From the NCBI GenBank assembly GCA_964457905.1, contig CAYWGA010000002.1:3475-67474 (forward strand): a stretch of DNA of 64,000 bases. Reading direction: 5' to 3'. The position numbers were made by a program, and so were the translations under genes. This DNA comes from an uncultured bacterium (lineage in GTDB: Bacteria; Krumholzibacteriota; Krumholzibacteriia; Krumholzibacteriales; Krumholzibacteriaceae). This document shows positions 22,344 through 46,262 of the stretch, piece by piece. The stretch's first letter is position 1. Each line of letters starts with the position of its first letter. Under the pieces are notes generated by a model. That model was not told where the DNA came from, searched no databases, and saw nothing but the letters and a program-made list of their open reading frames with translations.

Positions 22344-25300
22344 CCTTCGCCCGGATCTTTCAGCTTCAAGGGACGGGCGGGGTCCGTCACTGCGCCTATT
22401 TTTACCGCATAACTTGTCTTGTTCTCAATATCCTCATCTGTCACAACGTGTACATCGAGCAGCCCCCCGGAGCGATATCCGGTCCGGTTATAGTTGATCT
22501 CGTCGAGACACAGGCTCCACGCTTCAAGCCAGGTCATCAGATCATTACGCTGATCCTGTGTTCCGCGGAAGTGGACGAGAAGGTCGATATCGCTGGCTAG
22601 CCCGGCAGTTGCGTTCTTCGTGCTTCCAAAGACGTAGAAACCAACTACTCCGAAACGTTCGGGATCGAGTCGGGAGGCGATGTGCTCAGCCATCCTCAGG
22701 CGCCACATCCAGAGATGGTCGGTCGGTTTTTTTGCCTCTGCCTCCATCTCGGTGATCTCTTCCCTGTCCTCTGTCGGATCGGCAAGGATACCAAGTGCCT
22801 CACCCAGATCGGCGTTCATCAGTACCCTCAGGACCCTGCCCTTTGTCGCTTTGGGCACATCGATCAGTTTTATCGTATCGGCCAGCCCGGCATACTCGGG
22901 AAGCACGTCGGGAAGAAGATTTTTCGAGATTGAAAAGAACCTGTCGTTGAAAACGGTTCCCTCATCATCGGGATACAGCGGAAGGTATCTTATCTGTCCT
23001 TCCACGAGATCCTGGAAAAAATGTGTCCCAAACGAAAGATCCGGCTTATAGCCACCTTTGCTGCGTGCGATCTCCATCAGGACCGCTGTATTGTTGATGT
23101 CGGAATATGTCACGCTCACACCGAGTCGTATATCGCCCCTGCTCCCCCATCTGCCCGGTCCCATGAGTACGAACTGGCGCTTGGGCAGGATCTTGTTCAG
23201 CCGGCTGACTGCCCGTCCTACCTCCAGAAGTTCCTCACGGGAGGATATTTCGCCGTATTTCACCGGGTCCACGTATACCACGTGCGTGATATCCGGCACG
23301 CGCCCGTTGGATACATACCTGTCCGCTGAAAATACGATATCCTTCTCGGAGACATCCTTGGGGATGGGAGACGGCGCGATATCTTCCGAATAGCTCTGGG
23401 GCCTGCACTGGAGAAGATAGAAATCGTTGCCGTCATGAGCGAATTCGATGTCGACGGGATTACCGATAGTCTCTTCCAGGGTCTCAAGGATCGCCCGTAC
23501 TTTCCTTACGAATGGCGTATCGCTCAGGAGCCCCTCACACGTCATCAACAGGTCGTCCTTTTCGAAATCGATGCTCATCGGCATCGGCTTGTGCATATGA
23601 CCACCCTTATTGACCAGTACCATCTTTTCAATATTCGGATAGTCGTCGCCATGTGTCCTGAGCAGTTCGCTGATCTCGACCGTTTCGAATGTATTGCTCC
23701 GGAGGTTGATCACATCGATCATCTTCGGGGAATAATGCGCGATCTCTTCGGGAGCCACGTTGACGCGAAGACCGGGTTGTCCCGGCGCCACCAGGATGGG
23801 ATAATCGTCGCTTACCCTGTCGACTGCCCGCGTGCCAAGGCCCGGGACGAGCCTTATCAATCCGTCCTCCCTCTTTATCCTGGGAGACCACCTGAATTCG
23901 TTTCTGCTGAACGCCACCCCGGCGAATGCCGGCAGGAAGTAATCACCCATCCTCGTCCCGATGACCTCCTGGATGAGAATTCCCATCTCCTCGGCAAAAT
24001 CGAGGAGCCCCCTCTCAGCCCTGTATTCGATCGGATCCGGCCCGAAGGAGGAGGCATAGACCTCGGCGATGGCATCCATGAGGGCCTCGAGACACTCCCG
24101 CTTGGATCCCTGGTTGGCAAGAAACAGGCTTTTGTATTTACCGGAAAAAGACGCACCGAGGCTGTCCTCAAGCAGGCTCGAGCTACGGATGATAAGCGGC
24201 TTCCCCTCGCATTCATCGAGGACCATGGACAGCCCCTGAACGACCTCAGGAGGGAACCGTCCATTTTTGAACGATCTTATGACATTCGGATATTCGACTC
24301 TGACCTGATTGATGCTCTTGTACTTTTGCTCCACGACTTCATCCATGTTGTTATACTTCAGGAATCCAAGCAGGATGTCGGAAGTCATGTACCAGCTGTT
24401 GGGGACCTTGATGCTTGAAAGCTCCTCGTCTTCCGCGAAACTTTTTCTGATTATCTGTTTCGCCATGACCAGGCCGGCGCATTTACCCCCGAGCCGTCCA
24501 TGGCTTCCAGTCATATAGATCGTCTTGTCGAGAAACTCGAAGAAATCCGCGATCTCAAAATAATTCTTGGCGATGTTTATATAGTCGAGCTGCGAAGAGA
24601 GGAATCTTCTGACCAGAGATACTATGACTCCGAGCTTGGCGCTCGGAGAGAGATCTATGTTCTCGGAGACCGCATCCCTGTACTGCCTCAACGCTGCAAT
24701 CACATCGGGAAGAGTAAGGTTCCTGTTAGCGATATGTATCAGGTATTTCAGCCTGTCATCCTGGATCCATTTCTGCAGGTATGCATATATCTGGTCACCG
24801 GTGAACTGACTTGTAGCAATCCGGAATATCTCGAAACTCATATCTTCCGTCAGCCTGAGATTACCACTTCTCATCGGCCGGTTCTCGTCCTCCTGGCCCC
24901 TCGCTCCATTCTCATAATAATCCGGCACTATCTTCTGCTGCAGTTTTTCAGCGGCTGAGACACCTTCCCAGCACAGATGATTGAGCATCCTCTCGGTCAC
25001 ATTGTAATAAAGGTCCTTGTCTGTGAACCGCAGAAGGTTCAGGATGACTTTCCAGTCTTCCTTGCCGGAACTGTCCGCCGGCTCGCCCGATAATCCGGCC
25101 TTCACCTTCATATCATCCTGCTGGAGAAGACTGCCGATCCTATCGGCGATGGTCGAAAGCAGCTTTTTCTCCTGCCTCAGAAAGGGACCATCGTCCGCTT
25201 CCGGCATCTCTCGGCTGTAGAAGACAGACAGCTTCCCGGCCTGTCTCTTGCCGACAATGATATCCGCGCTCTGCATCCATGAGGTTTCGGTGAATCCATA

Positions 25301-25519
25301 TTCGCTGTAACTGTCAGGTCCCAGTTCGATTCTCACGCGGCAGTATTTTGGATACTGCCATCCGGACGGAATCGCTGAGACAATCTTCATGCACGTATCC
25401 CCGATATTCCCCTCATGATCCCTTACGATCTCCTCGATGCGGTACAGGCACTCAAGTTCCTTCTCTCTTTCAACAAAGAAACGCATGAGATCATCCGGAT
25501 TATCTTTTTGGTCATGCAT
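22340..25519 (-). CDS. Multidomain protein: N-terminal unknown region, PEP/pyruvate-binding (PPDK_N, ATP-grasp-like) domain, C-terminal Pol-beta-type nucleotidyltransferase
   Basis: RLGGKCAGLVMAKQII and IIRSSSLLEDSLGASFSGKYKSLF are PPDK_N hallmarks. C-terminus FYVFGSTKNATAGLASDIDLLVHF is the G[SG]x9-13Dh[DE]h minimal NTase motif. Its 5' end overlaps the upstream paralog by 8 nt. Confidence 0.6.
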   Translation of the reverse strand: MHDQKDNPDDLMRFFVEREKELECLYRIEEIVRDHEGNIGDTCMKIVSAIPSGWQYPKYCRVRIELGPDSYSEYGFTETSWMQSADIIVGKRQAGKLSVFYSREMPEADDGPFLRQEKKLLSTIADRIGSLLQQDDMKVKAGLSGEPADSSGKEDWKVILNLLRFTDKDLYYNVTERMLNHLCWEGVSAAEKLQQKIVPDYYENGARGQEDENRPMRSGNLRLTEDMSFEIFRIATSQFTGDQIYAYLQKWIQDDRLKYLIHIANRNLTLPDVIAALRQYRDAVSENIDLSPSAKLGVIVSLVRRFLSSQLDYINIAKNYFEIADFFEFLDKTIYMTGSHGRLGGKCAGLVMAKQIIRKSFAEDEELSSIKVPNSWYMTSDILLGFLKYNNMDEVVEQKYKSINQVRVEYPNVIRSFKNGRFPPEVVQGLSMVLDECEGKPLIIRSSSLLEDSLGASFSGKYKSLFLANQGSKRECLEALMDAIAEVYASSFGPDPIEYRAERGLLDFAEEMGILIQEVIGTRMGDYFLPAFAGVAFSRNEFRWSPRIKREDGLIRLVPGLGTRAVDRVSDDYPILVAPGQPGLRVNVAPEEIAHYSPKMIDVINLRSNTFETVEISELLRTHGDDYPNIEKMVLVNKGGHMHKPMPMSIDFEKDDLLMTCEGLLSDTPFVRKVRAILETLEETIGNPVDIEFAHDGNDFYLLQCRPQSYSEDIAPSPIPKDVSEKDIVFSADRYVSNGRVPDITHVVYVDPVKYGEISSREELLEVGRAVSRLNKILPKRQFVLMGPGRWGSRGDIRLGVSVTYSDINNTAVLMEIARSKGGYKPDLSFGTHFFQDLVEGQIRYLPLYPDDEGTVFNDRFFSISKNLLPDVLPEYAGLADTIKLIDVPKATKGRVLRVLMNADLGEALGILADPTEDREEITEMEAEAKKPTDHLWMWRLRMAEHIASRLDPERFGVVGFYVFGSTKNATAGLASDIDLLVHFRGTQDQRNDLMTWLEAWSLCLDEINYNRTGYRSGGLLDVHVVTDEDIENKTSYAVKIGAVTDPARPLKLKDPGEG

Positions 25520-27269
25520 GGAGGATCACCCCCCGGCCGCTCTTTCCGTCGACCTTTACAGTCAGCGGACTGTCGAGTCTGATATGCCGGACATGTTTTG
25601 TCTCGAAACAGGATTCTTTGGTTTTCAGCCATTTCCAGTCTATCGAACGATCGTCGTCATGTCGCATGGAAAAATAGAAGACCTTGAAGCTGGTCAGGTT
25701 GTGGAAGAAATGCGAACCCTGGCTCATCATGTACCCGAAGTTGGAAAGAGAGATCTCCACTATAACCTTCGCTCCGGATATCTGGCCGAAATCGACTGGG
25801 ATCCCGCCCATCTGGTCCGTCGTCCCCCAGCGTCCGAAGCCTACCAGAATGTATTTCCTGCCCTCTCCGACCAGCCTTTCGTTTATCGTCTCTATTTCAG
25901 AAGCGATCTCCCGGGACCTCATTATGTCGAATGTGTCGGGATCGATATATACCAGGTCGGAGATCGAATCATCGGCCCCGTTTCCCAGAACCGTGGTAGA
26001 AGAGATCAGCACTCCCGGATCGTCAAGCTCCTCCTCCGCAACGGTCACTTCAGACTTCGAAACGACCATCGGACGGGCCTGAAGAAATCCGAAATCGGCA
26101 GGTTCACCGAGCGTGCTTCCAAGTCTCATCGCGAACTCGATCTCCACCTTCGCTCCGAGCCGTTCCTCGCATTCCCTCATGACTGTCTTGAGGAGCTCGC
26201 TGAAATGGAAATCCCTGCCTCGAAGGATCGGCGAGAAATCAATGACCCTCGGCCCGTCACGAAAGATTCCGCTCTCGAGACGGTCATCCCTGTGATTATA
26301 TGTCGAGGCGATCAGGCCAAGGGACCCGTCATACTCGCAGTCCTTCAAATCGAATCGATCAAGGTACTCCATCTCTTCAACAGGACTGTATGTATGCAGC
26401 TTCCCCATATTCACTGCCCAGAACCCGGTCTGAGTATGCTTGAGCATATCACCGGTCGACTTGAACGGAGGACCGACAGCGGGCCATTCGGGCGAAAAGG
26501 CCCATGAGATCCCGTCATCGACAATCGTCCTCCCGAGACCGAGTGCCAGCTCGACTACCCCCTCCTCCGGTTCTGCCCTGCCGAAAGGATAAAAATTGAA
26601 CGATCTCATCACGCCTGATACGTGAGGGTAATACCTGTCCCCGAATCTCGTGCCGATGATATCCTGAATTATCACAGCCATCTTTTCATCCTCGATCGAA
26701 TGGCTCACGACCTTCATGTAGTCCCCTGCAGACTTGAAGAATGTAGAGGCATAGATGAATTTTACCGCCTCGGCCAGCTTCTGAAATCTGGAATCCGTAT
26801 CGGGAAGATTGTTGGGGACCATCTTTGTCGCGTAGACACTGGCGAAAGGCTCGAACATGGCATCCTCCAGCAGGCTCGAGGACCTTACCGCCAGAGGTGT
26901 GTGGACCTGCTGCGCGATAGCTCTCAGATCGCCGGCAAGCCCGACAGGAAGGGAAGCTCGCAGAAAAGCGTGGGCCTTGATCTCATCGCGCCTGTCGGAG
27001 AGCGCGATATCGTAGAGGTCGTTCTCCCGCATGAAGAGATCGAAAAACTCCGTTGTAATAACGGTCAGCCTTGGAATAGCGACCGATATAGCCGGTTCGA
27101 ACAGAGGCTTTACCTTATTTCCCAGCGCTTCACCCATCTTCGCCAATCCGTGAGCCTTGCCACCCAACTCACCGGAACCGATGAAAGTAAACCGCTCTTT
27201 CCCGGTAAAGAACTCCCGTTCGAACCGGCTGACAGTAAATTCATCCCTTATGCCGGATTCTTCAGACAA
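25512..27269 (-). CDS. PEP/pyruvate-binding (PPDK_N) domain protein, paralog of 22340..25519 without NTase
   Basis: ELGGKAHGLAKMGEAL and VRSSSLLEDAMFEPFASVYATKMVPN motifs. Shares the post-PPDK_N module (ILVGFGRWGTTD vs VLMGPGRWGSRGD) with the neighbour. Apparent TTG start 6 nt after the gdh stop. Confidence 0.55.
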   Translation of the reverse strand: MSEESGIRDEFTVSRFEREFFTGKERFTFIGSGELGGKAHGLAKMGEALGNKVKPLFEPAISVAIPRLTVITTEFFDLFMRENDLYDIALSDRRDEIKAHAFLRASLPVGLAGDLRAIAQQVHTPLAVRSSSLLEDAMFEPFASVYATKMVPNNLPDTDSRFQKLAEAVKFIYASTFFKSAGDYMKVVSHSIEDEKMAVIIQDIIGTRFGDRYYPHVSGVMRSFNFYPFGRAEPEEGVVELALGLGRTIVDDGISWAFSPEWPAVGPPFKSTGDMLKHTQTGFWAVNMGKLHTYSPVEEMEYLDRFDLKDCEYDGSLGLIASTYNHRDDRLESGIFRDGPRVIDFSPILRGRDFHFSELLKTVMRECEERLGAKVEIEFAMRLGSTLGEPADFGFLQARPMVVSKSEVTVAEEELDDPGVLISSTTVLGNGADDSISDLVYIDPDTFDIMRSREIASEIETINERLVGEGRKYILVGFGRWGTTDQMGGIPVDFGQISGAKVIVEISLSNFGYMMSQGSHFFHNLTSFKVFYFSMRHDDDRSIDWKWLKTKESCFETKHVRHIRLDSPLTVKVDGKSGRGVILHA

Positions 27270-35082: not shown

Positions 35083-36144
35083 ATGAGATTTCGGTCCAGG
35101 GGCGTGGTTTCCGCCATTTTCCTGATGGCCGCCGCATTTCTCGCCATCAATGCGCAATACGTTCGTGCAAGCGGGGTCCTGATCCTGGGTCCCAGTACGC
35201 GGGCTTACGGGATGGGCCTTTCCGGCACTGCCGACGTCTCGGATCCATCCAACGCCTTTTACAACCCGGCTAATATCTCTTTTATCAACGGCGCCTACCT
35301 GACGGGGTTCTACAGCAAGCTTGTCCCGGACCTTGCCGATGACGTCTACACCGGGAACCTCGCAGTTGCCGGCGGCACCAGGTTTCGACTTGGAGAGTCT
35401 TACGAGTTAGGGCTGGGAGGCTGCCTGCGGTACCAGAAGCTCGATTATGGAGAATGGGGAACCTTTTCCGGGGGCACGGCGTCATCCTCAGAATATGTCA
35501 TCAGCTTTTCACTGGCAGGCGGCATCAAGATCAATAAGATCTTCAACCTGGGGATCGGACTCTCTGTCAAACCTGTGAAACTCGATCTTGCACCTGCCTG
35601 GAGCACGCCAGATGGCGAATCGCGCGAATCCGATGGAACCGCGTCAGATTTCGGCATATTGCTCGGGGCAGAGCTGCCGATAGGCGAGGAATTTACATTT
35701 TCAGGGAACATCGGCCTCAGCTACCTGAATATGGGCAGCGACTTCGAATTTCAGAACTGGTTCGGGACCATCTCGATGCCGTCAGCAACGCGCTACGGGA
35801 TCGGTATAAGACTCGAGTCACAGCCGCTTACCGGCAACGAGAAGTTCGGGCCGCTTTTCACGCTGGCCTTTAATGTCGATAAGCTGGACCACACTTCCGA
35901 GGCCGATAAAGGGAAATCCGATGAAAGCAGTTACGGAGCGGAGATCGGATTTCTAAGGATGCTGTTCCTCCGTATCGGACGTTGGAAGTACGAATCGGGG
36001 AATATCGATGACAAGACGTTTGGCGTGGGACTGGGAGTCGAGCTTGAGAGTTTCCTCATAAGGCTTGATTGGGCCAGAGTGCCGCAGGCATCGAATCTGG
36101 ACAACGTCAACAAGTTCGGGCTGATCACCGGGATATCCTTCTGA
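35083..36144 (+). CDS. Putative outer-membrane beta-barrel protein
   Basis: Signal peptide. Alternating hydrophobic strands. C-terminal ...GLITGISF with terminal Phe. GAGGAGGGG RBS. Confidence 0.5.
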   Translation: MRFRSRGVVSAIFLMAAAFLAINAQYVRASGVLILGPSTRAYGMGLSGTADVSDPSNAFYNPANISFINGAYLTGFYSKLVPDLADDVYTGNLAVAGGTRFRLGESYELGLGGCLRYQKLDYGEWGTFSGGTASSSEYVISFSLAGGIKINKIFNLGIGLSVKPVKLDLAPAWSTPDGESRESDGTASDFGILLGAELPIGEEFTFSGNIGLSYLNMGSDFEFQNWFGTISMPSATRYGIGIRLESQPLTGNEKFGPLFTLAFNVDKLDHTSEADKGKSDESSYGAEIGFLRMLFLRIGRWKYESGNIDDKTFGVGLGVELESFLIRLDWARVPQASNLDNVNKFGLITGISF

Positions 36145-36152
36145 GCGAGACG

Positions 36153-36749
36153 ATGAAAAAGAACGAGAATAACGAAAAGATGCTGCAGTTCGACAGAGGC
36201 GTTGAGCAGGGTATGACAGAGCGCGACGACGGCTCCAAAGAGATAAATCCCGGAGAATTCAAGGTTTTCCTCGCTGACGGCAGAATTGCATGCCTGTGGG
36301 GCACAAACAGGGCAACAGCTGTTGAATACAAGAGGGTTTCCGACAAGGGCTTCACTGAAACAGAGATAAGGCGAATCCTCAATAATGGTCCCTTTTCAAA
36401 CGACTCCCGGGCAGACTGCGAGAGAATAATATCCGCGCTGCGCTGGACTGAACACATGATGGTGGATGATCTGAAATACTTCCTGAAACTGCTGCGGGAA
36501 TCGATAATCACCGGGAAAAATATTCCCTTCCCCCCGAAATCGGCGGACGAACTTCTCGAAATCATTCACACGGCATATAACGTTTTCAGACTGCCCATGA
36601 ACCTGGAGATCGCCGAAATGTCAAAGCGCCTGAAACTAACCGGGGACAAAGATGCGGATTCAGCCAAGATCTCATCTTTCCTGGACATTATCGAGGCGGG
36701 AAAAATCAGGAAATTCCCGAAAAATGATCATGAAAAGAATTCGAACTGA
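36153..36749 (+). CDS. Hypothetical protein (198 aa)
   Basis: ORF trimmed to the first ATG after the preceding stop. No recognisable motifs. Confidence 0.35.
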   Translation: MKKNENNEKMLQFDRGVEQGMTERDDGSKEINPGEFKVFLADGRIACLWGTNRATAVEYKRVSDKGFTETEIRRILNNGPFSNDSRADCERIISALRWTEHMMVDDLKYFLKLLRESIITGKNIPFPPKSADELLEIIHTAYNVFRLPMNLEIAEMSKRLKLTGDKDADSAKISSFLDIIEAGKIRKFPKNDHEKNSN

Positions 36750-36939: not shown

Positions 36940-38010
36940 ATGAAAAACGGAAGAAAGCTCCTGCCGGCGATTATCGCATTGGCCATCCTGGCGATCGCGT
37001 CGTACGGCTGCGGCGGCGATTCGCAGTCGAAGGAGAATGGCGAAGAAGACAAGGATCCTGTAGTTCCCGTAGAGGTAGGCGCGGTCAAGACCGGCGACAT
37101 CTCTGCCTATTTCACCGGCACAGCTAACATCGAGGCCGAAGAGGAGACCGGAGTAGTCGCCAAGGTGAGCGGTGTAGTCGAAGAGCTCTACGTTGAAGAG
37201 GGCGATTTCGTCAAGGCGGGGGCTGTCCTCGCGAAACTCGACGACGAGATGATCGGTGTACAGCTCGAGCAGGCAAAGGCCGACATGAGAAATCAGGAGA
37301 ACAACTACAAGCGTAACCAGGACCTCCACGAGAAACAGCTCGTCAGCACAGAGGTCTTCCAGCAGGTCAAGTTCGAGTACGAGCGTCAGAAGGCTGCATA
37401 CGACCTCGCCGCGCTGAGCCTCAAGTACACATCGATCAAGACTCCGATCAGCGGCGTCGTTTCCGAGAGGAATGTCAAGGTCGGCAACATGGTCCTGCAG
37501 AACCAGGATATATTCAGGGTCAGCGGGCTCGATCCGATTATCGCGATCCTGTACGTTCCCGAGAGGCAGCTCGAGAGGATGAAGGCAGGACAGAGATCGG
37601 TCCTTCATATAGACGCCCTTGGCGGCACGGACTTCGAAGGCTACATCAAACGTATAAGTCCCATCGTCGACTCAGGAACCGGCACCGTAAAGGTCACAAT
37701 CGAAGTCAATGACCCGACAGGCCGGGTCAGGCCGGGCATGTTCGCCCGGGTCAAGATCGTATACAATGTCCATGAGGGCACGACACTGGCCCCGAAGGAC
37801 GGGATAATGGATGAAGACCGTGAATCGACGGTCTTCGTCGTCCAGGACAGCACCGTTTACAAACGAACTGTTGTCCTCGGCTACACCAACACGACCCATG
37901 TCGAGATCCTCGAAGGGCTCATGCCTGGCGACACAATCGTCACCACGGGCAAGGGCAGCCTGAAGGACAGCACAAAGGTCGAGATCGTCAGGTCGGGCGG
38001 CGATAAATGA
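36940..38010 (+). CDS. RND efflux periplasmic adaptor (membrane fusion protein) lipoprotein
   Basis: Lipobox ASYGCGG. Biotinyl-lipoyl-like hairpin and beta-barrel MFP segments (VKVGNMVLQNQDIFRV...). GGGAGAGAG RBS. Confidence 0.8.
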   Translation: MKNGRKLLPAIIALAILAIASYGCGGDSQSKENGEEDKDPVVPVEVGAVKTGDISAYFTGTANIEAEEETGVVAKVSGVVEELYVEEGDFVKAGAVLAKLDDEMIGVQLEQAKADMRNQENNYKRNQDLHEKQLVSTEVFQQVKFEYERQKAAYDLAALSLKYTSIKTPISGVVSERNVKVGNMVLQNQDIFRVSGLDPIIAILYVPERQLERMKAGQRSVLHIDALGGTDFEGYIKRISPIVDSGTGTVKVTIEVNDPTGRVRPGMFARVKIVYNVHEGTTLAPKDGIMDEDRESTVFVVQDSTVYKRTVVLGYTNTTHVEILEGLMPGDTIVTTGKGSLKDSTKVEIVRSGGDK

Positions 38011-41000
38011 AGATAATCGAGATCTCCATCCGGCGGCGCGTGACGATAGCGATGTTCACGCTGGCAGTAATACTATTCGGGGCGGTCTCTTTCTTCCGGC
38101 TCAAGATCAACCTTCTCCCCGAGCTCACATATCCGACACTGACGGTGCGCACCGAATACGCCGGTGCCGCTCCCGCAGAGATAGAAAATGTCATATCGAA
38201 ACCGATCGAGGAAGTACTCGGCGTCGTCAAGAACGTCAACCGGGTAAGCTCGATCTCACGCTCGGGACAGTCCGACGTCATTCTCGAATTCGCATGGGGA
38301 ACGGACATGGACTACGCAGGCCTCGACGTACGAGAGAAACTCGACGTACTGCAGCTGCCCCTTGAGGTCGAACGGCCTACACTCCTGCGATTCGATCCCT
38401 CGCTGGATCCGGTACTGCGTTTCGGCTTCTATAAGGAAAAAACTGCCGATGCGGACAGCGCCGGTGTGGACGATGACTGGTTCGACGAAGAGGAACTGAA
38501 GTTCCTCCGCCGGTTTGCCGAGGAAGAGATAAAAAAGGAGCTCGAGTCTTCACTCGGAGTCGCTGCTGTAAAGGTAAGCGGCGGCCTCGAGGATGAGATC
38601 CAGATATTCATAGATCAGCAGCTCACCGCCCAGCTCGACCTGCCTATCAGCACCCTGGCCGCGCAGATAGGCGCGGAGAACGTCAACCTGTCTGGCGGCA
38701 GGCTCGAGGAAGGCACGCAGCAGTACCTCGTCAGGACGCTTAACGAGTTCGAATCGATCGAGGAGATCGGAGATGTGGTCGTATCCACGAAGGACGGCAA
38801 GCCGATATACCTCCGTGATATCGCCACAGTAAGGCATGGATACAAGGAACGGGAAGCGATTACGAGGCTCAACGGACGCGAGGCTGTCGAGATCGCTATA
38901 TACAAGGAAGGCGACGCCAATACGGTCGCTGTGGCCCGCGATGTCGAGAAACATCTCTCACGCGCGAAAAGGGTTCTCCCGGAAGGATACCGGCTGGTCA
39001 AGGTCTACGACCAGTCGACCTTTATCAGGCAGGCGATAAACGAGGTCATCACGGCAGCCGTTATCGGTGGAATCCTCGCGATTATCATCCTCTACCTCTT
39101 CCTTCAGAATTTCTGGGCAACGGTCATCATATCACTTTCGATACCGGTATCCGTCATCGCGACCTTCAACATGATGTACGGCGCCGACCTTTCCCTCAAC
39201 ATAATGTCTCTGGGAGGAATAGCGCTCGGAATCGGGATGCTCCTGGATAACTCGATCGTCGTACTGGAAAACATATCCCGGCACCGGGCGATGGGGAAGA
39301 ATATCTCCGATTCCGCCAGGGATGGAGCGAGCGAGGTCGGGAAAGCAGTGACAGCTTCTACACTGACCACTGTCGCGGTCTTCCTGCCTCTCGTATTCGT
39401 ATCGGGGATCTCCGGGCAGCTCTTCAGGGACCAGGCCCTTACCGTCACCTTCGCGCTGATTGCGTCTCTCATTGTAGCGCTGACACTGATTCCGATGCTG
39501 GCCTCCCTGCAGGCCAACAAAGTGCCGCCTCCCCCTCCCACTCCGAAAAAGGAGCCGAAGAGGCGTGTCGGCCGATGGTTCACGACTGTCGGAAGATTCA
39601 TATTCAGTACTGTTCCTGTCTTTTTCACTAAAATCATCCTGGGAATCTGCAGTGGGCTTTCAAGGATCTTTTCATTCCTGCTGAGGCCTCTGCTGAAGCT
39701 TTTCACAAGGGTATACGACACCGTCGCCGGATGGTATGACGGCATGCTCGCCTGGTCCCTGGATCACAGGGGCAGGATCATATTTATAGCGTTTGTCATG
39801 TTCGCCGGCACGATGCTGATGGCCACCAACCTCGGCGTTGAGTTGATACCGCAGCTTTCGCAGGGAGAGTTCCGCGTCGAGTTCCGCCTCTCTCCCGGCA
39901 CACCTCTCGAAGTGACAGACAGAGCTATCAGAAGCGTTCAGGAATCGACGACCGATATCGCCGGGATCAGCACCGTCTTCGCTGTAGCCGGAACAGGCAA
40001 CAGGATGGACGCCAATCCCGAACAGGGCGGCGAAAACTGGGGCGAACTCAACGTGGTCCTCCAGCCAGGTTCAGAACGGGACGATGAAGAGCGGGTCATG
40101 GCGCAGATGCGCGGCGACCTGCATCGGGTCCCCGACCTTCAGTACAAGTTCTCGAGGCCGACGCTCTTCACCTTCAAGACACCGGTCGAGATCGAGATCG
40201 CCGGATACGACCTGCGCAGCCTCAAGAAGGTCAGCAACGATATCACTGCGAAGCTCGACTCCAATCCGCGTTTCGCTGACGTAAAATCAACGATGAAAGC
40301 GGGACATCCCGAGATACAGATAAGATTCGACAGGGAAAAAGCCGCGGCGCTCGGATTCCAGGTATACGAGGTCGCGGACCGGGTCGTCAGCAAGGTCCGG
40401 GGTGATGTGGCATCCCGCTACTCGTGGCGCGACCGGAAGATCGACATCCTCGTCCGTGCCAAGGAATCGGACAGGAACTCGGTGGACAAGATAAGAAAAT
40501 TGATAATCAATCCGGAGAGTGAGCATCCCGTCACCCTTGAAGCGGTCGCGGACATCACGCTCGACACCGGTCCCGGAGAGATCAGAAGAATCGACCAGGA
40601 AAGGGTCGCCCTGGTCACGGCCAACCTCAACTACGGCGATCTCGGCACCGCCGCCGAAGAGATCAACGGGATGATCCGGGGCATACCGATGCCCGGCGGA
40701 CTCGCGGTAACTGTAGCCGGGCAGAACCAGGAGATGACGAAATCCTTCAAGTCTCTCCAGTTCGCCCTCCTGCTGGCGGTCTTTCTCGTCTACCTGGTGA
40801 TGGCCTCACAGTTCGAGTCGTTCCTTCATCCCTTCGTTATCCTGTTTTCGATCCCGCTGGCACTGATCGGCGCGGTATGGGCATTGTTCCTGACCGGTTC
40901 GACGATAAGCGTGGTCGTATTCATCGGCCTGATACTTCTGGCGGGAATCGTAGTCAACAACGCGATCGTGCTGATCGACCTTATCAATCAGCTGCGAGAT

Positions 41001-41237
41001 GGCGGAATGGACAGACGGTCGGCTATCCTGGAAGGCGGCAAGTCAAGGCTGCGACCGATCCTCATGACGACTCTTACGACCACTCTGGGCCTCCTACCCC
41101 TGGCCCTCGGAGTCGGAGAAGGCGCTGAAGTGAGGGCGCCCATGGCCATCACAGTCATCGGGGGACTGACCGTATCGACTCTGCTTACGCTCATCGTAAT
41201 ACCTGTCGTATATGACCTGTTCGACAGGAGAAGATAG
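38007..41237 (+). CDS. RND multidrug efflux pump, inner-membrane subunit (AcrB/HAE1 family)
   Basis: 1076 aa, 12-TM plus two large periplasmic loops. Conserved TM4 motif ALGIGMLLDNSIVVLENI and C-terminal AxxGxxRLRPILMTTLTT. Start overlaps the MFP stop. Confidence 0.9.
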   Translation: MKIIEISIRRRVTIAMFTLAVILFGAVSFFRLKINLLPELTYPTLTVRTEYAGAAPAEIENVISKPIEEVLGVVKNVNRVSSISRSGQSDVILEFAWGTDMDYAGLDVREKLDVLQLPLEVERPTLLRFDPSLDPVLRFGFYKEKTADADSAGVDDDWFDEEELKFLRRFAEEEIKKELESSLGVAAVKVSGGLEDEIQIFIDQQLTAQLDLPISTLAAQIGAENVNLSGGRLEEGTQQYLVRTLNEFESIEEIGDVVVSTKDGKPIYLRDIATVRHGYKEREAITRLNGREAVEIAIYKEGDANTVAVARDVEKHLSRAKRVLPEGYRLVKVYDQSTFIRQAINEVITAAVIGGILAIIILYLFLQNFWATVIISLSIPVSVIATFNMMYGADLSLNIMSLGGIALGIGMLLDNSIVVLENISRHRAMGKNISDSARDGASEVGKAVTASTLTTVAVFLPLVFVSGISGQLFRDQALTVTFALIASLIVALTLIPMLASLQANKVPPPPPTPKKEPKRRVGRWFTTVGRFIFSTVPVFFTKIILGICSGLSRIFSFLLRPLLKLFTRVYDTVAGWYDGMLAWSLDHRGRIIFIAFVMFAGTMLMATNLGVELIPQLSQGEFRVEFRLSPGTPLEVTDRAIRSVQESTTDIAGISTVFAVAGTGNRMDANPEQGGENWGELNVVLQPGSERDDEERVMAQMRGDLHRVPDLQYKFSRPTLFTFKTPVEIEIAGYDLRSLKKVSNDITAKLDSNPRFADVKSTMKAGHPEIQIRFDREKAAALGFQVYEVADRVVSKVRGDVASRYSWRDRKIDILVRAKESDRNSVDKIRKLIINPESEHPVTLEAVADITLDTGPGEIRRIDQERVALVTANLNYGDLGTAAEEINGMIRGIPMPGGLAVTVAGQNQEMTKSFKSLQFALLLAVFLVYLVMASQFESFLHPFVILFSIPLALIGAVWALFLTGSTISVVVFIGLILLAGIVVNNAIVLIDLINQLRDGGMDRRSAILEGGKSRLRPILMTTLTTTLGLLPLALGVGEGAEVRAPMAITVIGGLTVSTLLTLIVIPVVYDLFDRRR

Positions 41238-44200
41238 ATGAACCTGACGAACGCATCGATCAGGCGACCAGTGACGACATTGATGATCTTCGTCTGCTTC
41301 ATCGTGCTGGGAATTATCTCGGCAAGACTACTGCCGATGGAATACTTTCCCGATCTTGACGCCCCTTTCATTTTCATAGAGATCCCCTACCCCGGCTCCA
41401 CTCCAGAGGAGATAGAACGTCAGATCACGAGGCCAGCCGAGGAAGTCATCGCGACTATAAGCGGCTTCAAGCGTATGGAGTCCAACTCGCACACTAATGG
41501 TGCATGGATCAGGCTGGAGTTCGAATGGGGAGTCGATACCGATGTCAAGGCCCTTGAAGCAAAAGAGAAACTCGAGGGGATCCGGCACCTCTTTCCCGAC
41601 GACCTCGAACGTTTTCATGTCCTCAAATGGTCGACCGCCGACATGGAGATCCTGACCCTGAGGATCTCGAGCAACCGCGACCTGTCGAATTCGTACGACA
41701 TGCTCAACAGGAACGTGAAACGAAGGATCGAGAGGATCGAAGGCGTTTCCAAGGTGGATCTCTACGGAGTTGAAAAGAAGGAAGTCCGTATCAAGCTGTC
41801 GGCTGACAGGATCATCCAGCACGGGATCGATATCGGCCAGCTATCCCGGACACTCCGACGCAGTAATTTCCTCGTGACAGCCGGGAAGATAACCGACCAG
41901 AACCAGAGGTTCGTGGTCAGGCCGGTCGGAGAGTACCAGTCCATAGAAGAGATCGGCCAGGTCATCGTCGGCGAGAACGGCCTCAAGCTGAGCGATATCG
42001 CGACCGTGACATACGAGCAGCCCGAACGCAACTACGGCCGCCATCTCAACCGGAAATACGCGATCGGCCTCAACGTCTTCAAGGAAGGCGGAGCGAACCT
42101 CGTCGAAGTGACGGACAAGATCGTCGAAGAGATCGAAATAATAAAAGATGTCCCCGAGATGGAGGGAATCAGCATATTCTACATGGACAATCTGGCTGAT
42201 GGCGTGACGAGCTCGCTGAACGAGGTCCTGAAAGCCGGCATGATCGGAGGCTCCCTCGCGATCCTGATCCTTTTCTTTTTCCTCAGGCGCCTGGTAACGA
42301 CCTTCATCGTCGCTCTGGCTGTTCCACTGTCCCTGCTGATCACCCTCACCTTCATGTATTTTTCAGGAGTCACCCTCAACATCCTGTCGATGATGGGGCT
42401 GATGCTTGCTGTTGGCATGCTCGTCGACAACGCGGTCGTGGTGACCGAAAGCATACACCGGCATCAGATCGCCGATCCCGGTTCCCCGACTTCGATCTCT
42501 GCCGGCGTCAAAGAGGTCTCAATGGCGATTACAGCGGGAACTGCTACCACAGGGATAGTCTTCCTGCCAAATATCGTCAGCCCGAATGACGATATCTCCA
42601 TATACCTCAAGCATGTCGGAATCACGATCGTCATCGCCCTCGGTGTCTCGCTCCTGCTCGCACAGACGATCGTCCCTCTCCTTTCGTCGAAGATAAAACC
42701 GCCGAAACCGGTGACCAAAAAGACGATCATCGACAAGTTCATAGGTAAATACGCCATCGCCCTCGAATGGACGATGCGCCACAGGAAAGCGACCGCCTGG
42801 ATCATCATCGGCCTCCTCTTGAGCATCGCTGTTCCCATGAAATTCGTTAAAACGGAGATGTTCGACGAACCCGAGGACAGGCGTATCAGGCTCCACTACC
42901 ATATCAATGGCAGCTATACCCTGGAGAAGGTCGAGGCAGCCATTACCGAATACGAGAACTACCTCTTTGAGAACCAGGAGAAGTTCGAGATCGAATCGAT
43001 CTACAGTTACTTCCAGGGCGATTACGCATCTTCAACTATCCTCCTCAATAAAGAGGGGACGAAGAAATCGACCGAAGAAATAAAAGACGAGATAAAGGAA
43101 GGCCTTCCGAAAATGGCCATCGCCAATCCTTCGTTCACCTGGCGAAACCAGGGAGGCGGCGGCTCCTCTATCGACATCAGCCTTATGGGCAAATCCAGCG
43201 AGAAACTTGCGGAGATATCAAAGGATGTCGCATGGACCCTCAGTCAGCTGCCCGGATTCTCCGATGTCCGCTCCGACGCTGAAATAGGCGAAAAGGAGGT
43301 CCAGATAACGGTGGACCGCCAGCGCGCACGGCAGTACGGATTCTCTGCCGGTGAGATCGCACAGGTCATTTCGGCGGCGTTGCGCGGCGTAAACCTGAGG
43401 AAGATGCACGGAGAGTCAGGCGAGATCGATATCCGCCTGGAGTTCCAGGAGGAAGACCGAGAGACTCTCGACCAGTTGAAGGATCTCCCCCTTCATTCCA
43501 GGACAGGCACGACTGTCAAACTCGCATCACTGGCCAATTTTAAAGTAAGGCGAGGCCCCCGGAGCATCCAACGGGAGGACAGGACTACCTCTCTTGGAGT
43601 CTCCGCGAACCTGACAGACGTCACAAAGGGTGACGCGCAGAAAATGATCTCTTTCGTACTGGCAAACTACAACTTTCCCGCCGGATATTCCTGGAACTTC
43701 GGCCAGAGCTTCGACCACGAGCAGGAAGCGATGAACACGATGCTGATAAACCTGCTCCTCGCTCTGGCTCTGATATACTTCGTGATGGCATCGCTGTTCG
43801 AATCGCTCCTCTATCCTACAGCGATATGGACCCAGATATTATTCTCCATCGTCGGTGTCTACTGGTTCTTCCTTATTACCGGGACCACGATGTCGATCAT
43901 GGCGATGATCGGGATCCTGATATTGATAGGCGTAGTAGTAAACAACGGGATCGTACTCGTTGATCATATAAACCATCTGCGTTCGAAGGGAATGAAAAGG
44001 AACGAAGCCATCGTGCAGGCCGGCCGGGACAGATTGAGGCCCATCCTCATGACTGCCGGTACGACCGTACTCAGCCTTGTTCCGCTTTGCGTCGTCACGA
44101 CACAGATAGGCGGCAACGGACCGCCGTATTTCCCTATGGCAAGAGCGATAGTCGGTGGGTTAACATTCTCTACAGCAATCACCCTTCTCGTCCTGCCTAC

Positions 44201-44312
44201 GATTTACGCACAGCTGGACGATTTAAGAAACTGGTCACGAAGGGTTATCGCAAAAGCAAAGGGCGCGCAACCTGCTGCGCCAGCCGAACCTGAACGGAGG
44301 TTGTCGATATGA
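41238..44312 (+). CDS. Second RND efflux pump subunit (AcrB-like paralog)
   Basis: 1024 aa. Motifs AVGMLVDNAVVVTESI and RLRPILMTAGTTVLSLVP. Start codon abuts the stop of the first pump (TAGATG). Confidence 0.9.
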   Translation: MNLTNASIRRPVTTLMIFVCFIVLGIISARLLPMEYFPDLDAPFIFIEIPYPGSTPEEIERQITRPAEEVIATISGFKRMESNSHTNGAWIRLEFEWGVDTDVKALEAKEKLEGIRHLFPDDLERFHVLKWSTADMEILTLRISSNRDLSNSYDMLNRNVKRRIERIEGVSKVDLYGVEKKEVRIKLSADRIIQHGIDIGQLSRTLRRSNFLVTAGKITDQNQRFVVRPVGEYQSIEEIGQVIVGENGLKLSDIATVTYEQPERNYGRHLNRKYAIGLNVFKEGGANLVEVTDKIVEEIEIIKDVPEMEGISIFYMDNLADGVTSSLNEVLKAGMIGGSLAILILFFFLRRLVTTFIVALAVPLSLLITLTFMYFSGVTLNILSMMGLMLAVGMLVDNAVVVTESIHRHQIADPGSPTSISAGVKEVSMAITAGTATTGIVFLPNIVSPNDDISIYLKHVGITIVIALGVSLLLAQTIVPLLSSKIKPPKPVTKKTIIDKFIGKYAIALEWTMRHRKATAWIIIGLLLSIAVPMKFVKTEMFDEPEDRRIRLHYHINGSYTLEKVEAAITEYENYLFENQEKFEIESIYSYFQGDYASSTILLNKEGTKKSTEEIKDEIKEGLPKMAIANPSFTWRNQGGGGSSIDISLMGKSSEKLAEISKDVAWTLSQLPGFSDVRSDAEIGEKEVQITVDRQRARQYGFSAGEIAQVISAALRGVNLRKMHGESGEIDIRLEFQEEDRETLDQLKDLPLHSRTGTTVKLASLANFKVRRGPRSIQREDRTTSLGVSANLTDVTKGDAQKMISFVLANYNFPAGYSWNFGQSFDHEQEAMNTMLINLLLALALIYFVMASLFESLLYPTAIWTQILFSIVGVYWFFLITGTTMSIMAMIGILILIGVVVNNGIVLVDHINHLRSKGMKRNEAIVQAGRDRLRPILMTAGTTVLSLVPLCVVTTQIGGNGPPYFPMARAIVGGLTFSTAITLLVLPTIYAQLDDLRNWSRRVIAKAKGAQPAAPAEPERRLSI

Positions 44313-45535
44313 AGAAGTTCCTCACGATAGGTATGGTCCTTTTACTCGCCGCCGCGGCGGCTGCCCCATCGTTTGCCGATGGGCGCGGCAGGATCCACGG
44401 ACGTGTGATCACCACTGACGGGGAAAAATACGAGGGCCTTATCAGGTGGGACAAGAATGAGACCTCGTGGGTAGATATGATCGACTGTTCAAAGGAGCTC
44501 GAGCTTGTCAGACGCAAGGACAAAGACGGCGAGAATGTCAAATCGATATATGTATTCGGCATCAGGATCGGAAAGGTGAAGCACAAGGGCGAGTACAACA
44601 TGTCGGCCCAGTGCGCCGTCGCCTTCGGCCACCTCGAGGCTATCGAGTTCATCGAAGACGATGAAGCCCGTCTCATATTCAAATCGGGAGAGGAACTGGA
44701 AGTCAAAGCCAGCTCGACCGATATCGGCGACAACATCCGCGGAATCATCGTCGAAGACGAGGACGAGGGTGAGATAGAGTTCGATTGGATGGACATTGAC
44801 AGGGTCGAATTCAGCCAGGCTTCGCACGAAGTCTATTCGGACCTTGGCGACAGACTGTACGGCACACTTACTACGCGGTCGAACGACACCTTCACAGGCT
44901 GGATCGTATGGGATGCCGATGAGGCCCTGACTGATGACCTCCTGGACGGAGAGCAGCGAAACCGTGACCGCGAGATCCCCTTCGGGAAGATCAGGTCCAT
45001 AGAGCGCCGCAGCTCGAGCAGCGCGCGCATCACCCTCAAGAACGGCGACGAGATAACCCTCAAGGGCACTAACGACGTGAACAGCTCCAACAGGGGCATC
45101 TCGATATTCGTCGAAAACTTCGGCGTGGTCAAGGTAGGCTGGGACGAATTCGACCGTATCGATTTTGAGGAAGCCGCGGCTCCTGTGGAATACAGCCGTT
45201 TCGATGGAGGCAAGCTGCTCAAGGGAACCGTTTATACCGATTCAGGAGAATCGTACTCGGGACATATCCGTTGGGACGACGACGAGGAGTACACGTGGGA
45301 GGTCATCGACACCGAGCTCAAAGGTGTCGAGATGGATATAGAACTCAGTAATATCAGCACCATCCGGCGCAAGGGATGCTGTTCTTCGATCATCACCCTC
45401 TGGGACGGAAGCGAATTCAAGGTCAAGGGCTCAAACGATGTCGATGATGAAAACAAGGGGATATTCGTGATCCTCTCCTCGGGCGAGGAGATCGAAATCG
45501 ACTGGGACGATTTCGATTACATAAAATTCAAATAG
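44309..45535 (+). CDS. Secreted protein with 3.5 internal ~100-130-aa repeats, translationally coupled to the RND pump
   Basis: Signal peptide LLLAAAAAAPSFA. Repeat ends GEIEFDWMDIDRVEF / GVVKVGWDEFDRIDF / GEEIEIDWDDFDYIKF and repeat starts GRVITTDGEKYEGLIRWD / GTLTTRSNDTFTGWIVWD / GTVYTDSGESYSGHIRWD. ATGA overlap with the upstream pump. Confidence 0.5.
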   Translation: MKKFLTIGMVLLLAAAAAAPSFADGRGRIHGRVITTDGEKYEGLIRWDKNETSWVDMIDCSKELELVRRKDKDGENVKSIYVFGIRIGKVKHKGEYNMSAQCAVAFGHLEAIEFIEDDEARLIFKSGEELEVKASSTDIGDNIRGIIVEDEDEGEIEFDWMDIDRVEFSQASHEVYSDLGDRLYGTLTTRSNDTFTGWIVWDADEALTDDLLDGEQRNRDREIPFGKIRSIERRSSSSARITLKNGDEITLKGTNDVNSSNRGISIFVENFGVVKVGWDEFDRIDFEEAAAPVEYSRFDGGKLLKGTVYTDSGESYSGHIRWDDDEEYTWEVIDTELKGVEMDIELSNISTIRRKGCCSSIITLWDGSEFKVKGSNDVDDENKGIFVILSSGEEIEIDWDDFDYIKFK

Positions 45536-45559: not shown

Positions 45560-45590
45560 AACGCGCGGGGCTCTGTCCCGCGCGTTTTCT
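45560..45590 (+). terminator. Rho-independent terminator (AACGCGCGGG-GCTCTGT-CCCGCGCGTT-TTCT)
   Basis: 10-bp perfect stem with 7-nt loop and T-rich tail, 25 nt after the stop at 45535. Ends the efflux operon. Confidence 0.55.
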
Positions 45591-45695
45591 ATTAACTGTC
45601 TCCATATCGCTTGACATATAACTGCCTTACAATGGAGAATCTACCCGATAGTCAAATGGCGTACTGTCTAAAACTGAACGGAAGGTGGAGGAACC

Positions 45696-46262
45696 ATGAG
45701 CAGAGCACGTTGCCTTACAGTTTTCGGATTGATCCTTGTCATGGCCGCGATGAGTGTGCCAGTCAACGCACAGTCATCCTCAAGCGATGCACCGCCTAAC
45801 AATCACCTGCTAACGACCAACCCCTTCCTCATCCTCTTCAGCTGGTGGAACGTCGAGTACGAGTACAGGATCGCAAAAACCACGACTATCGGGATCGCAG
45901 GTTCATACAATACATTCGAAGATGATGATGAAGACGACTATGGGGAATCAGCAAAATATCTCAGCGCGTACGGGATCTTCAGATATTATCCCTCTGGAAA
46001 AGCGCATTCAGGATTCTACTTCGGCGGCAGGCTCGGGGTAACGTCCGTTGAGATAGAATACTACGACGGCGAGCCCACCGAAAAGGGCACCGCCTACGGT
46101 TTCGGCCTTGACGTCGGATATACCTGGCTCCTGGGCGACAACCAGAATTTTGCCGTAAGTGTCGGCGGCGGCGCAACGAGGCTCTTCGGCGGCGATCTCG
46201 AGGACGACCAGGCTGCGTTCCTACCGATCATCAGGCTGGTCAACGTCGGTATCGCGTTCTAG
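45696..46262 (+). CDS. Small outer-membrane beta-barrel protein (OmpW/OmpA-TM-like)
   Basis: Signal peptide ending VNAQ. 188 aa with amphipathic strands. C-terminal VNVGIAF. Confidence 0.5.
   Translation: MSRARCLTVFGLILVMAAMSVPVNAQSSSSDAPPNNHLLTTNPFLILFSWWNVEYEYRIAKTTTIGIAGSYNTFEDDDEDDYGESAKYLSAYGIFRYYPSGKAHSGFYFGGRLGVTSVEIEYYDGEPTEKGTAYGFGLDVGYTWLLGDNQNFAVSVGGGATRLFGGDLEDDQAAFLPIIRLVNVGIAF

What the first reader, a model, noticed from the sequence alone, without database searches (positions are those of the whole stretch)
44309..45535. Internally repeated secreted protein translationally coupled to the RND pumps
The fourth gene of the efflux operon encodes a secreted protein built from ~3.5 copies of a ~100-130-aa module. 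Each copy starts G[RT][VL]xT[TD].G..[YF].G.I.WD.[DN]E and ends [DE][IW]D[DR][IV][DEK]F. It overlaps the second pump by ATGA. This position is normally held by an OMF or a periplasmic accessory factor, so the protein may be a novel periplasmic or outer-membrane partner of the pump.
Basis: partly seen in the sequence, partly recalled or inferred. Interest (0 to 1): 0.5.

Follow-up and report, generated by a model that had tools for sequence, protein, structure and literature searches.

The report
Exported triple-barrel protein ending pump operon
The fourth gene of this efflux-pump operon is a real, strongly conserved, exported protein made of three copies of a small beta-barrel module, but its relatives in most other genomes sit nowhere near a pump, so it is probably a general cell-envelope protein of unknown function and not a dedicated pump part.

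Summary
ORF 44309-45535 (+, 408 aa) is a real gene: dN/dS is 0.07-0.09 and it has over 1000 full-length homologs. It has a Sec signal peptide and overlaps the second RND gene by ATGA. It contains exactly three repeats, not about 3.5. Repeat 1 is split by a conserved, basic insertion of about 43 aa.

AlphaFold2 models are confident (pLDDT 86 for the whole protein, 92 for a single repeat). [quoted passage not shown] No Pfam, NCBIfam or PDB sequence match passes threshold. The protein is not an outer-membrane factor or a membrane-fusion protein.

The family has a fixed three-module architecture and gives 763 clusters at 50% identity. It is found in Krumholzibacteria, Zixibacteria and related uncultured phyla. 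RND linkage is confined to one Krumholzibacteria subclade, 5 of 72 species loci. Of 22 orthologous MFP-RND-RND operons, 19 lack the gene downstream.

The 'pump partner' reading is therefore weakly supported. The protein is most likely a soluble, acidic periplasmic binding or scaffold protein that this lineage recruited as the last cistron of an MdtABC-like operon. Its biochemical function remains unknown.

The parts
36940..38010 (+). Gene 1 of the operon: RND periplasmic adaptor (membrane-fusion protein), 356 aa
   Evidence: Pfam HlyD_D23 E 5e-32; NCBIfam TIGR01730 RND_mfp E 3e-74, above cutoff
38007..41237 (+). Gene 2: RND permease 1 (1076 aa); overlaps the MFP gene by 4 nt
   Evidence: Pfam ACR_tran E 4e-265. 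Best NCBIfam matches are the RND_permease_2 subfamily and MdtC/MdtB-like models, all below the equivalog cutoffs
41238..44312 (+). Gene 3: RND permease 2 (1024 aa), 29% identical to permease 1. This gives an MdtABC/MuxABC-like operon with paired permeases
   Evidence: Pfam ACR_tran E 9e-197; blastp RND1 vs RND2 29% identity
44296..44300 (+). Shine-Dalgarno GGAGG inside the 3' end of RND2, 8 nt before the ATG of the target
   Evidence: Sequence GGAGGTTGTCGATATGA read
44309..45535 (+). Gene 4, the finding: exported 408-aa triple-repeat protein; ATGA overlap with RND2
   Evidence: ORF; more than 1000 homologs; dN/dS 0.07-0.09; AF2 pLDDT 86.4, pTM 0.82
44309..44377 (+). Sec signal peptide (aa 1-23, predicted cleavage SFA|DG). 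No lipobox
   Evidence: Read from the sequence; the same n-h-c organisation is seen in all 39 aligned homologs. No signal-peptide predictor was available
44378..44821 (+). Repeat 1 (aa 24-171), interrupted by an insertion
   Evidence: hhalign vs R2 E 9e-23 and vs R3 E 6e-20; the HMM match is split at profile positions 40/43
44486..44611 (+). Family-wide basic insertion in repeat 1 (aa ~60-101). An Arg/Lys-rich segment surrounds a conserved hydrophobic I-x-[IV]-F-G-I-x-I-G hairpin. This is the only low-confidence part of the model
   Evidence: pLDDT below 50 at aa 68-97. Median length 43 aa; median net charge +6 against -41 for the rest of the protein
44837..45175 (+). Repeat 2 (aa 177-289)
   Evidence: hhalign vs R3 probability 99.9%, E 1e-36
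45200..45532 (+). Repeat 3 (aa 298-408). Modelled alone it has 10 strands and an ImpE-fold-like barrel
45560..45596 (+). Intrinsic-terminator-like hairpin (12-bp stem, 9 G-C pairs, loop of 3) plus a T-rich tail, 25 nt after the stop codon. It marks the end of the operon
45611..45640 (+). Promoter-like TTGACA-18-GAGAAT ahead of the next gene (DUF3575, 45696-46262), which is therefore probably a separate transcript
   Evidence: Pfam DUF3575 E 2e-13

Best explanation
Gene 4 encodes a soluble, very acidic protein exported by Sec into the periplasm. It consists of three tandem beta-barrel modules of about 110 aa. Each module has the topology of the barrel in the 'ImpE fold' of T6SS TagJ/HsiE1, that is, two fused Sm/SH3-like small barrels. 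A conserved basic loop with a hydrophobic hairpin is inserted in module 1.

The protein belongs to an unannotated family with a fixed three-module architecture. The family is found across Krumholzibacteria, Zixibacteria and allied uncultured phyla, where it is usually encoded away from any pump.

My reading is that it is a general envelope binding or scaffold protein. The barrels would present conserved acidic and aromatic loops (W-D-x-D-E, N-D-V-D-x-x-N-x-G, W-[DE]-[DE]-F) to a ligand or partner. The basic loop would contact a membrane or another protein. In one Krumholzibacteria subclade the gene came to lie at the 3' end of an MdtABC-like MFP-RND-RND operon. In the window's own lineage it became translationally coupled, so there it is co-expressed with the pump without being an obligate pump subunit.

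Shown: gene reality, export signal, three repeats, fold similarity, operon structure, and the phylogenetic restriction of the linkage.
Inferred: periplasmic solubility, the binding role, and independence from the pump.
For: - Real gene under purifying selection.
- Signal peptide in all members, no lipobox, no T9SS C-terminal domain, pI about 4.5.
- Three repeats.
- Confident models.
- The ImpE-fold barrel borders a peptide-binding groove in HsiE1 (PMC4239648).
- Fixed architecture in 763 clusters at 50% identity. Ten longer-than-usual members scanned against Pfam gave no domain hit above its cutoff.
- RND is upstream in only 5 of 72 species loci, and all of these fall in one clade.
- The target is absent downstream of 19 of 22 orthologous RND operons.
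- Zixibacteria show different conserved synteny.
- A terminator follows the gene directly.
Against: - The ATGA overlap with RND2 is conserved in at least five related genomes.
- Adjacency or near-adjacency to the operon persists to about 52-55% protein identity (L028, L087, L122). This is longer than neutral synteny often lasts and could reflect a functional tie.
- No direct evidence for any ligand or partner exists.
- The binding-module idea rests on fold analogy at 16% identity, with no sequence-level link to ImpE.
- Coordinates of the model could not be inspected, so whether the conserved loops cluster in space is untested.
Confidence: 0.55

Rival explanations
1. Lineage-specific periplasmic accessory subunit of the MFP-RND-RND pump. 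It could be a substrate- or ion-delivery chaperone in the manner of CusF, or a three-module adaptor matching the three-fold symmetry of the pump or its outer-membrane channel.
For: - ATGA coupling and a GGAGG inside RND2.
- The same arrangement in L003/L009, L004/L010, L007, L008, L091 and L124.
- Adjacency, with a gap of about 90 nt (L087) to about 110 nt (L028), in orthologs only about 52% identical.
- No OMF gene was found among the ORFs scanned in the 19.8-50 kb part of the window, so a slot is free.
- Three modules could match a trimeric partner (inference only).
Against: - 19 of 22 orthologous operons lack it.
- 67 of 72 species loci encoding it have no RND gene upstream.
- All linked copies form one clade, so one event suffices to explain them.
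- In L122 three opposite-strand genes separate it from the pump, so co-transcription is not required there.
- There is no Pfam hit to CusF-type or any known RND accessory family.
Confidence: 0.25
2. Outer-membrane component that replaces the missing TolC-like factor, either as an outer-membrane beta-barrel or as a channel.
For: Its position in the operon corresponds to opmB in muxABC-opmB (background knowledge). It has a signal peptide. The C-terminus is aromatic-rich...EF(xx).
Against: - No OEP or OMP Pfam signal.
- The model shows three separate barrels with 10 short strands of 4-8 residues in the single-repeat model, each matching a soluble cytoplasmic domain.
- There is a strong net negative charge and no amphipathic long strands.
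- The last residue is not aromatic in the 13 C-termini inspected.
Confidence: 0.03
3. Divalent-cation (for example Ca2+) binding or buffering periplasmic protein. The conserved Asp/Asn/Glu loops would be metal sites and the protein would act as an envelope cation store or sensor.
For: - pI 4.5, with 88 D/E residues in 385.
- Invariant W-D-x-D-E and N-D-V-D-x-x-N-x-G loops in every repeat, lying outside regular secondary structure yet modelled at high confidence.
Against: The motifs do not fit the canonical EF-hand or DxDxDG spacing (my reading of the sequence). No structural hit to a calcium-binding fold appeared. No metal-site prediction could be run.
Confidence: 0.12
4. Not a real gene: a chance ORF or a frameshifted remnant.
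For: None found.
Against: More than 1000 homologs of constant length. dN/dS 0.07-0.09 with dS above 1. Confident fold.
Confidence: 0.01

Closest known systems
C-terminal 'ImpE fold' beta-barrel of T6SS accessory protein TagJ/HsiE1 (PDB 4UQX) and VPA1032 (1ZBP)
   Different: - Sequence identity is 15-16%, and there is no Pfam or PDB sequence match.
- It has no N-terminal TPR domain.
- The barrel is triplicated in tandem.
- It is exported by a signal peptide instead of being cytoplasmic.
- No T6SS genes were seen in the neighbourhoods examined.
MdtABC (E. coli) / MuxABC-OpmB (Pseudomonas) operons: one adaptor plus two paralogous RND permeases
   Same: Gene order is MFP, RND, RND. The best NCBIfam equivalog-type hits are MdtA/MuxA, MdtB/MuxB and MdtC. 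A fourth gene follows in the operon.
   Different: - The fourth gene here is neither an OMF (OpmB) nor an MFS transporter (MdtD), as recalled from background knowledge.
- All equivalog scores are far below cutoff.
- Both permeases have D-N in TM4 and N-N in TM10. From memory of AcrB I expected D-D and K-N at these positions; the comparison was not aligned or tested.
CusF, the small periplasmic beta-barrel metallochaperone encoded inside cusCFBA
   Same: It is a soluble periplasmic small-barrel protein encoded within an RND operon. It serves as a conceptual model for an accessory factor.
   Different: There is no sequence or fold match to CusF. No conserved Met/His ligands were noted in the alignment consensus (ligand identities recalled from memory). 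The target is three times larger, and the linkage to the pump is not conserved.
Small periplasmic SH3/Sm-like barrel proteins (YgdI/YgdR DUF903 lipoproteins, ExtJ, bacterial PH-like bPH_6/YcxB)
   Different: All hits are below the curated cutoffs. Those proteins are single 50-80-aa domains, not a six-barrel array.

Membership tests
Outer membrane factor (TolC/OprM, Pfam OEP PF02321) | OEP repeats; long alpha-helical periplasmic tunnel plus a 12-strand trimeric barrel | tested here: not met
   No OEP hit at E <= 0.1 in any of 39 members. The model has no helices beyond the signal peptide
RND membrane-fusion/adaptor protein (HlyD family) | Biotin-lipoyl, beta-barrel and alpha-hairpin domains | tested here: not met
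   No HlyD-type Pfam or NCBIfam hit. Gene 1 of the operon already fills this role
ImpE/TagJ family (T6SS accessory) | Sequence match to the ImpE family model | tested here: not met
   No Pfam hit. Profile searches of PDB sequences do not retrieve 4UQX or 1ZBP
ImpE/TagJ family (T6SS accessory) | ImpE-fold beta-barrel | tested here: met
ImpE/TagJ family (T6SS accessory) | N-terminal TPR domain, cytoplasmic location, T6SS gene neighbourhood | tested here: not met
   All-beta model. Signal peptide. No T6SS genes appeared in the contexts listed
Bacterial PH-like domains (bPH_6, YcxB) | Score above the Pfam gathering threshold | tested here: not met
   The window protein's bPH_6 score is 18.8 bits against a cutoff of 22. 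Hits recur in 14-15 of 39 members; those whose scores were listed are below cutoff, and for the others only E-values (best 2.6e-4 for bPH_6, 1.1e-3 for YcxB) were returned
ExtJ (NCBIfam NF040942) | Equivalog score >= 52.5 bits; a protein of about 77 aa | tested here: not met
   21.8 bits, covering only the signal peptide plus the first half-barrel; 13 of 39 members hit weakly
Lipoprotein | Lipobox with an invariant Cys at +1 | tested here: not met
   No Cys in the window's signal peptide, and none conserved across the family
T9SS cargo | C-terminal sorting domain (Por_Secre_tail/CHU_C) | tested here: not met
   No such Pfam hit. The protein ends with repeat 3
MdtABC/MuxABC-type operon (context, not the protein) | One MFP followed by two paralogous RND permease genes | tested here: met
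   Heterotrimer formation itself is not testable here

The most novel reading that the evidence does not exclude
The protein is a previously unrecognised class of periplasmic RND accessory factor. It would be a single chain of three ImpE-fold barrels whose pseudo-three-fold layout docks on the trimeric pump or its outer-membrane exit duct. The conserved basic hairpin loop would anchor it to a membrane or partner. Krumholzibacteria of this subclade would have fixed that partnership in an operon.
Probability: 0.1. Interest if true: 0.7.

Novelty: new variant of a known kind. Interest (0 to 1): 0.35.

Why it matters
The result defines an unannotated, widely conserved exported protein family: about 760 clusters at 50% identity, and 248 species-level genomes in Krumholzibacteria, Zixibacteria and related uncultured phyla. 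The family reuses a fold so far known, from the PDB matches here, only from a cytoplasmic T6SS accessory protein, in a new triplicated, periplasmic form. That is useful for domain databases and for annotating these uncultured phyla.

For efflux biology the main value is cautionary. Tight translational coupling in one lineage looked like a new pump subunit, but comparative genomics shows that the pump and the protein are separable. If the minority reading were right, it would be a new kind of RND accessory factor.

Tried and rejected
1. Pfam, NCBIfam and PDB-sequence searches with the single protein, the full-length profile and the single-repeat profile gave only sub-threshold hits: bPH_6, YcxB, BapA_N, ExtJ and syntenin.
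2. Foldseek against PDB with the whole model gave no hit at E <= 1e-3. The top propeller and sliding-clamp 'hits' have TM-scores of about 0.1 and are meaningless.
3. The afdb50 fold library was unavailable.
4. I looked for a consistent operon partner across 80 loci. The apparent upstream '+' ORFs with ATGA overlap in L018, L025 and L053 are low-complexity antisense artefacts.
5. I looked for an OMF gene in the window. None was found among the ORFs scanned in the 19.8-50 kb part of the window; the 22-30 kb large ORFs are PPDK-like, GDH and a pyridine nucleotide-disulphide oxidoreductase.
6. I looked for extra domains in longer family members. None were found apart from a weak OmpH-like signal in one expanded insertion.
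7. A paralog in the window: none.
8. Literature search for Krumholzibacteria efflux: nothing relevant.
9. EF-hand or DxDxDG reading of the acidic loops: the spacing does not fit, so it is kept only as a low-weight rival.
10. The look-up of encoding contigs failed for P0070 and P0108, which are not on record.
Full report
**1. What is in the sequence**

An ATG-started ORF of 408 codons runs from 44309 to 45535 on the + strand. Its start codon overlaps the TGA of the preceding 1024-aa gene as ATGA. A GGAGG lies 8 nt upstream, inside that gene.

The three upstream genes are as follows:
- An RND adaptor, 36940-38010 (TIGR01730, E 3e-74).
- Two RND permeases, 38007-41237 and 41238-44312 (ACR_tran, E 4e-265 and 9e-197).

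The two permeases are 29% identical to each other. The adaptor and first permease overlap by 4 nt, and the two permeases abut. This is an MdtABC/MuxABC-like layout.

A strong terminator-like hairpin lies at 45560-45586, 25 nt after the stop codon. It has a 12-bp stem with 9 G-C pairs and a T-rich tail. A TTGACA-18-GAGAAT promoter-like site follows, ahead of the next gene, which carries DUF3575.

**2. Is it a real, exported, repeated protein?**

It is a real gene. The protein search returned over 1000 homologs, nearly all 400-415 aa and full-length. Against five orthologs of 77-86% identity, dN/dS is 0.066-0.089 with dS above 1.

It is exported. The N-terminus (MKK-FLTIGMVLLLAAAAAA-PSFA|DG) is a classical Sec signal. 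All 39 aligned homologs have one, and none has a conserved lipobox cysteine. No signal-peptide predictor was available, so this is my reading of the sequence.

It is very acidic. The mature protein has pI 4.46, and the family median is 4.5.

It is repeated. Profile-profile comparison of the three segments gives E 9e-23, 6e-20 and 1e-36. There are exactly three repeats (aa 24-171, 177-289, 298-408), not about 3.5.

Repeat 1 is longer because an insertion splits it. A single-repeat HMM therefore matches it in two pieces. The insertion (aa ~60-101) is a family-wide feature with these properties:
- Median length is 43 aa.
- Median net charge is +6, against -41 for the rest of the protein.
- It has a conserved hydrophobic I-x-[IV]-F-G-I-x-I-G core.
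- It is the only poorly modelled part of the protein.

**3. Fold**

AlphaFold2 with a 39-sequence alignment gives pLDDT 86.4 and pTM 0.82. The model is all-beta, and each repeat has about 10-12 short strands. A single repeat modelled alone gives pLDDT 92.4.

HsiE1 and VPA1032 are ImpE-family T6SS accessory proteins. Their C-terminal 'ImpE fold' contains a 12-stranded barrel that lines the groove binding an extended TssB peptide (PMC4239648).

Foldseek with the whole model finds nothing significant. The three-barrel assembly as a whole therefore has no solved counterpart.

No sequence relationship to ImpE or any other curated family was detected. The only hits are sub-threshold ones to PH-like models (YcxB, bPH_6), BapA_N and ExtJ. 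I could not inspect model coordinates, so the relative packing of the three modules and the spatial clustering of invariant residues are untested.

**4. Distribution and architecture**

A single-repeat profile was searched against 1.84 billion cluster representatives. It finds 763 clusters at E <= 1e-3. The best 150 are almost all 400-430 aa with three repeats. Ten longer-than-usual members scanned against Pfam gave no domain hit above its cutoff. The module therefore seems to exist essentially only in this fixed triplicated form.

In the species-level genome collection, 248 loci encode a relative. Where the records name a taxon, the names are mainly Krumholzibacteria/-ota and Zixibacteria. 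GN15, UBP1 and Calditrichaeota also occur, along with some doubtful MAG labels. The window's nearest named relatives are Krumholzibacteriota MAGs at 84-86% identity.

**5. Is it tied to the pump?**

Three results bear on this.

(a) Most copies of the protein have no pump beside it. Of 72 species loci with at least 1 kb of upstream sequence, only 5 have an RND gene immediately upstream. One more was found separately: L087, at 52% identity and with a 92-nt gap. In a neighbour-joining tree all RND-linked copies form one clade. That clade contains the window group, L028/L087, and L011/L088, whose upstream region is off-contig. One ancestral juxtaposition therefore explains them all.

(b) Most orthologous operons lack the protein. 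Loci retrieved with an RND2 alignment gave 22 with an orthologous RND2 (48-84% identity) and at least 1.3 kb of downstream sequence. The target is adjacent in 1 of these. A truncated second locus also shows adjacency. In 2 it lies about 4.8 kb away, and in 19 it is absent. In L122 the intervening 4.8 kb holds three opposite-strand genes.

(c) The protein sits in unrelated contexts elsewhere. In Zixibacteria it sits in a different conserved block. That block runs SLT/LysM transglycosylase, SppA, HU, often a BACON-repeat protein of about 960 aa with a T9SS sorting domain, then the target. A TPR protein, purE and purD follow on the opposite strand. Other Krumholzibacteria clades show still other neighbours.

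The pump operon and the protein are therefore separable in both directions.

Some evidence remains in favour of a link. The ATGA coupling is conserved in at least five genomes. Proximity is retained to about 52-55% identity.

**6. What it is not**

- It is not an OMF. There is no OEP signal and no helical tunnel.
- It is not an adaptor.
- It is not a lipoprotein.
- It is not T9SS cargo.
- It is not a membrane beta-barrel.

No OMF gene was found among the ORFs scanned in the 19.8-50 kb part of the window. This is common for RND operons such as acrAB and mdtABC (background knowledge).

**7. Most likely mechanism**

I take the protein to be a soluble periplasmic binding or scaffold protein, with confidence about 0.55 for the overall picture. 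Each ImpE-like barrel carries invariant loops: W-D-x-D-E after strand 2, N-D-V-D-x-x-N-x-G between strands 7 and 8, and W-[DE]-[DE]-F near the end. By analogy with the HsiE1 groove, these loops could bind an extended peptide or an envelope polymer. Because of their acidity, they might instead bind divalent cations.

The basic loop with its hydrophobic hairpin in module 1 is a candidate contact for an anionic membrane surface or a partner's beta-sheet. In the window's lineage, expression is slaved to the pump operon by translational coupling. This fits a shared envelope-stress context but does not demonstrate one.

Everything beyond export, fold and genomic distribution is inference.

**8. Rivals**

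- A lineage-specific pump accessory factor, CusF-like in concept or a three-fold adaptor: about 0.25.
- A cation-binding or buffering protein: about 0.12. This overlaps with the main reading.
- An OMF substitute: about 0.03.
- A non-gene: about 0.01.

**9. Novelty and score**

The family is unannotated in Pfam and NCBIfam. It represents a new, exported, triplicated use of a fold known from a cytoplasmic T6SS protein, so I rate it a new variant of a known kind.

The specific claim that made the finding attractive, a new pump partner, is not supported family-wide. Interest is 0.35.

The most novel reading not excluded is a new class of RND accessory factor. I give it a probability of about 0.1 and an interest of about 0.7 if true.

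Noticed in passing
L030-L085 (e.g. L046:3736-7866, L084:5010-7880), immediately upstream of the homolog: In 38 of the 80 species loci (mostly the Zixibacteria/GN15-type clade), a gene for a protein of median 956 aa (complete copies about 760-1376 aa) lies about 80-140 nt (typically ~100 nt) upstream on the same strand. It has six BACON_2 repeats and a T9SS C-terminal sorting domain. A convergent TPR protein then follows, and then purE/purD. Possible co-transcription with a T9SS cargo was not examined.
   Followed up: partly
window 35083-36144 (+): A 353-aa protein just upstream of the operon region matches the PorV/PorQ family (NF033709, 85.1 bits against a cutoff of 90). It gives weak matches to the FadL and OMP_b-brl models. 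It is not conserved upstream in L003 or L004, so it is probably unrelated to the operon.
   Followed up: partly
window 38007-44312, RND1 aa ~410-420 and ~975-985; RND2 aa ~393-403 and ~900-910: Both permeases read L/V-D-N in TM4 and V-V-N-N in TM10. From memory of AcrB I would expect the D407-D408 and K940 proton-relay residues at these positions. This may indicate a non-canonical proton relay or simply be a trait of the RND_permease_2 subfamily. It was not aligned or tested.
   Followed up: no
window 45696-46262 (+); L003, L004, L007, L008, L124; L093:12136-12669: A 188-aa DUF3575 protein follows the target in all close relatives. L093 lacks the target, but the DUF3575 gene is still present about 3 kb downstream of RND2. 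The neighbourhood is therefore older than the target's presence, or the target was lost there.
   Followed up: partly
window 22340-27269 (-): Two adjacent large ORFs (1059 and 585 aa) both carry a PPDK_N (PEP-utilising, ATP-grasp-like) domain. The larger one also has a C-terminal nucleotidyltransferase domain. This is an unusual pair, next to a glutamate dehydrogenase and a pyridine nucleotide-disulphide oxidoreductase.
   Followed up: no
P0205 (535 aa family member), residues 96-188: In this homolog the repeat-1 insertion is expanded to about 100 aa or more. It gives a weak OmpH/Skp-like coiled-coil signal (E 2e-4, below cutoff). The insertion is a variable-length appendage across the family.
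   Followed up: no
window 36069-36749 (+): A 226-aa TTG-started ORF lies between the PorV-like gene and the adaptor gene. It has no Pfam hit. Whether it is a real gene or holds the operon promoter region was not examined.
   Followed up: no
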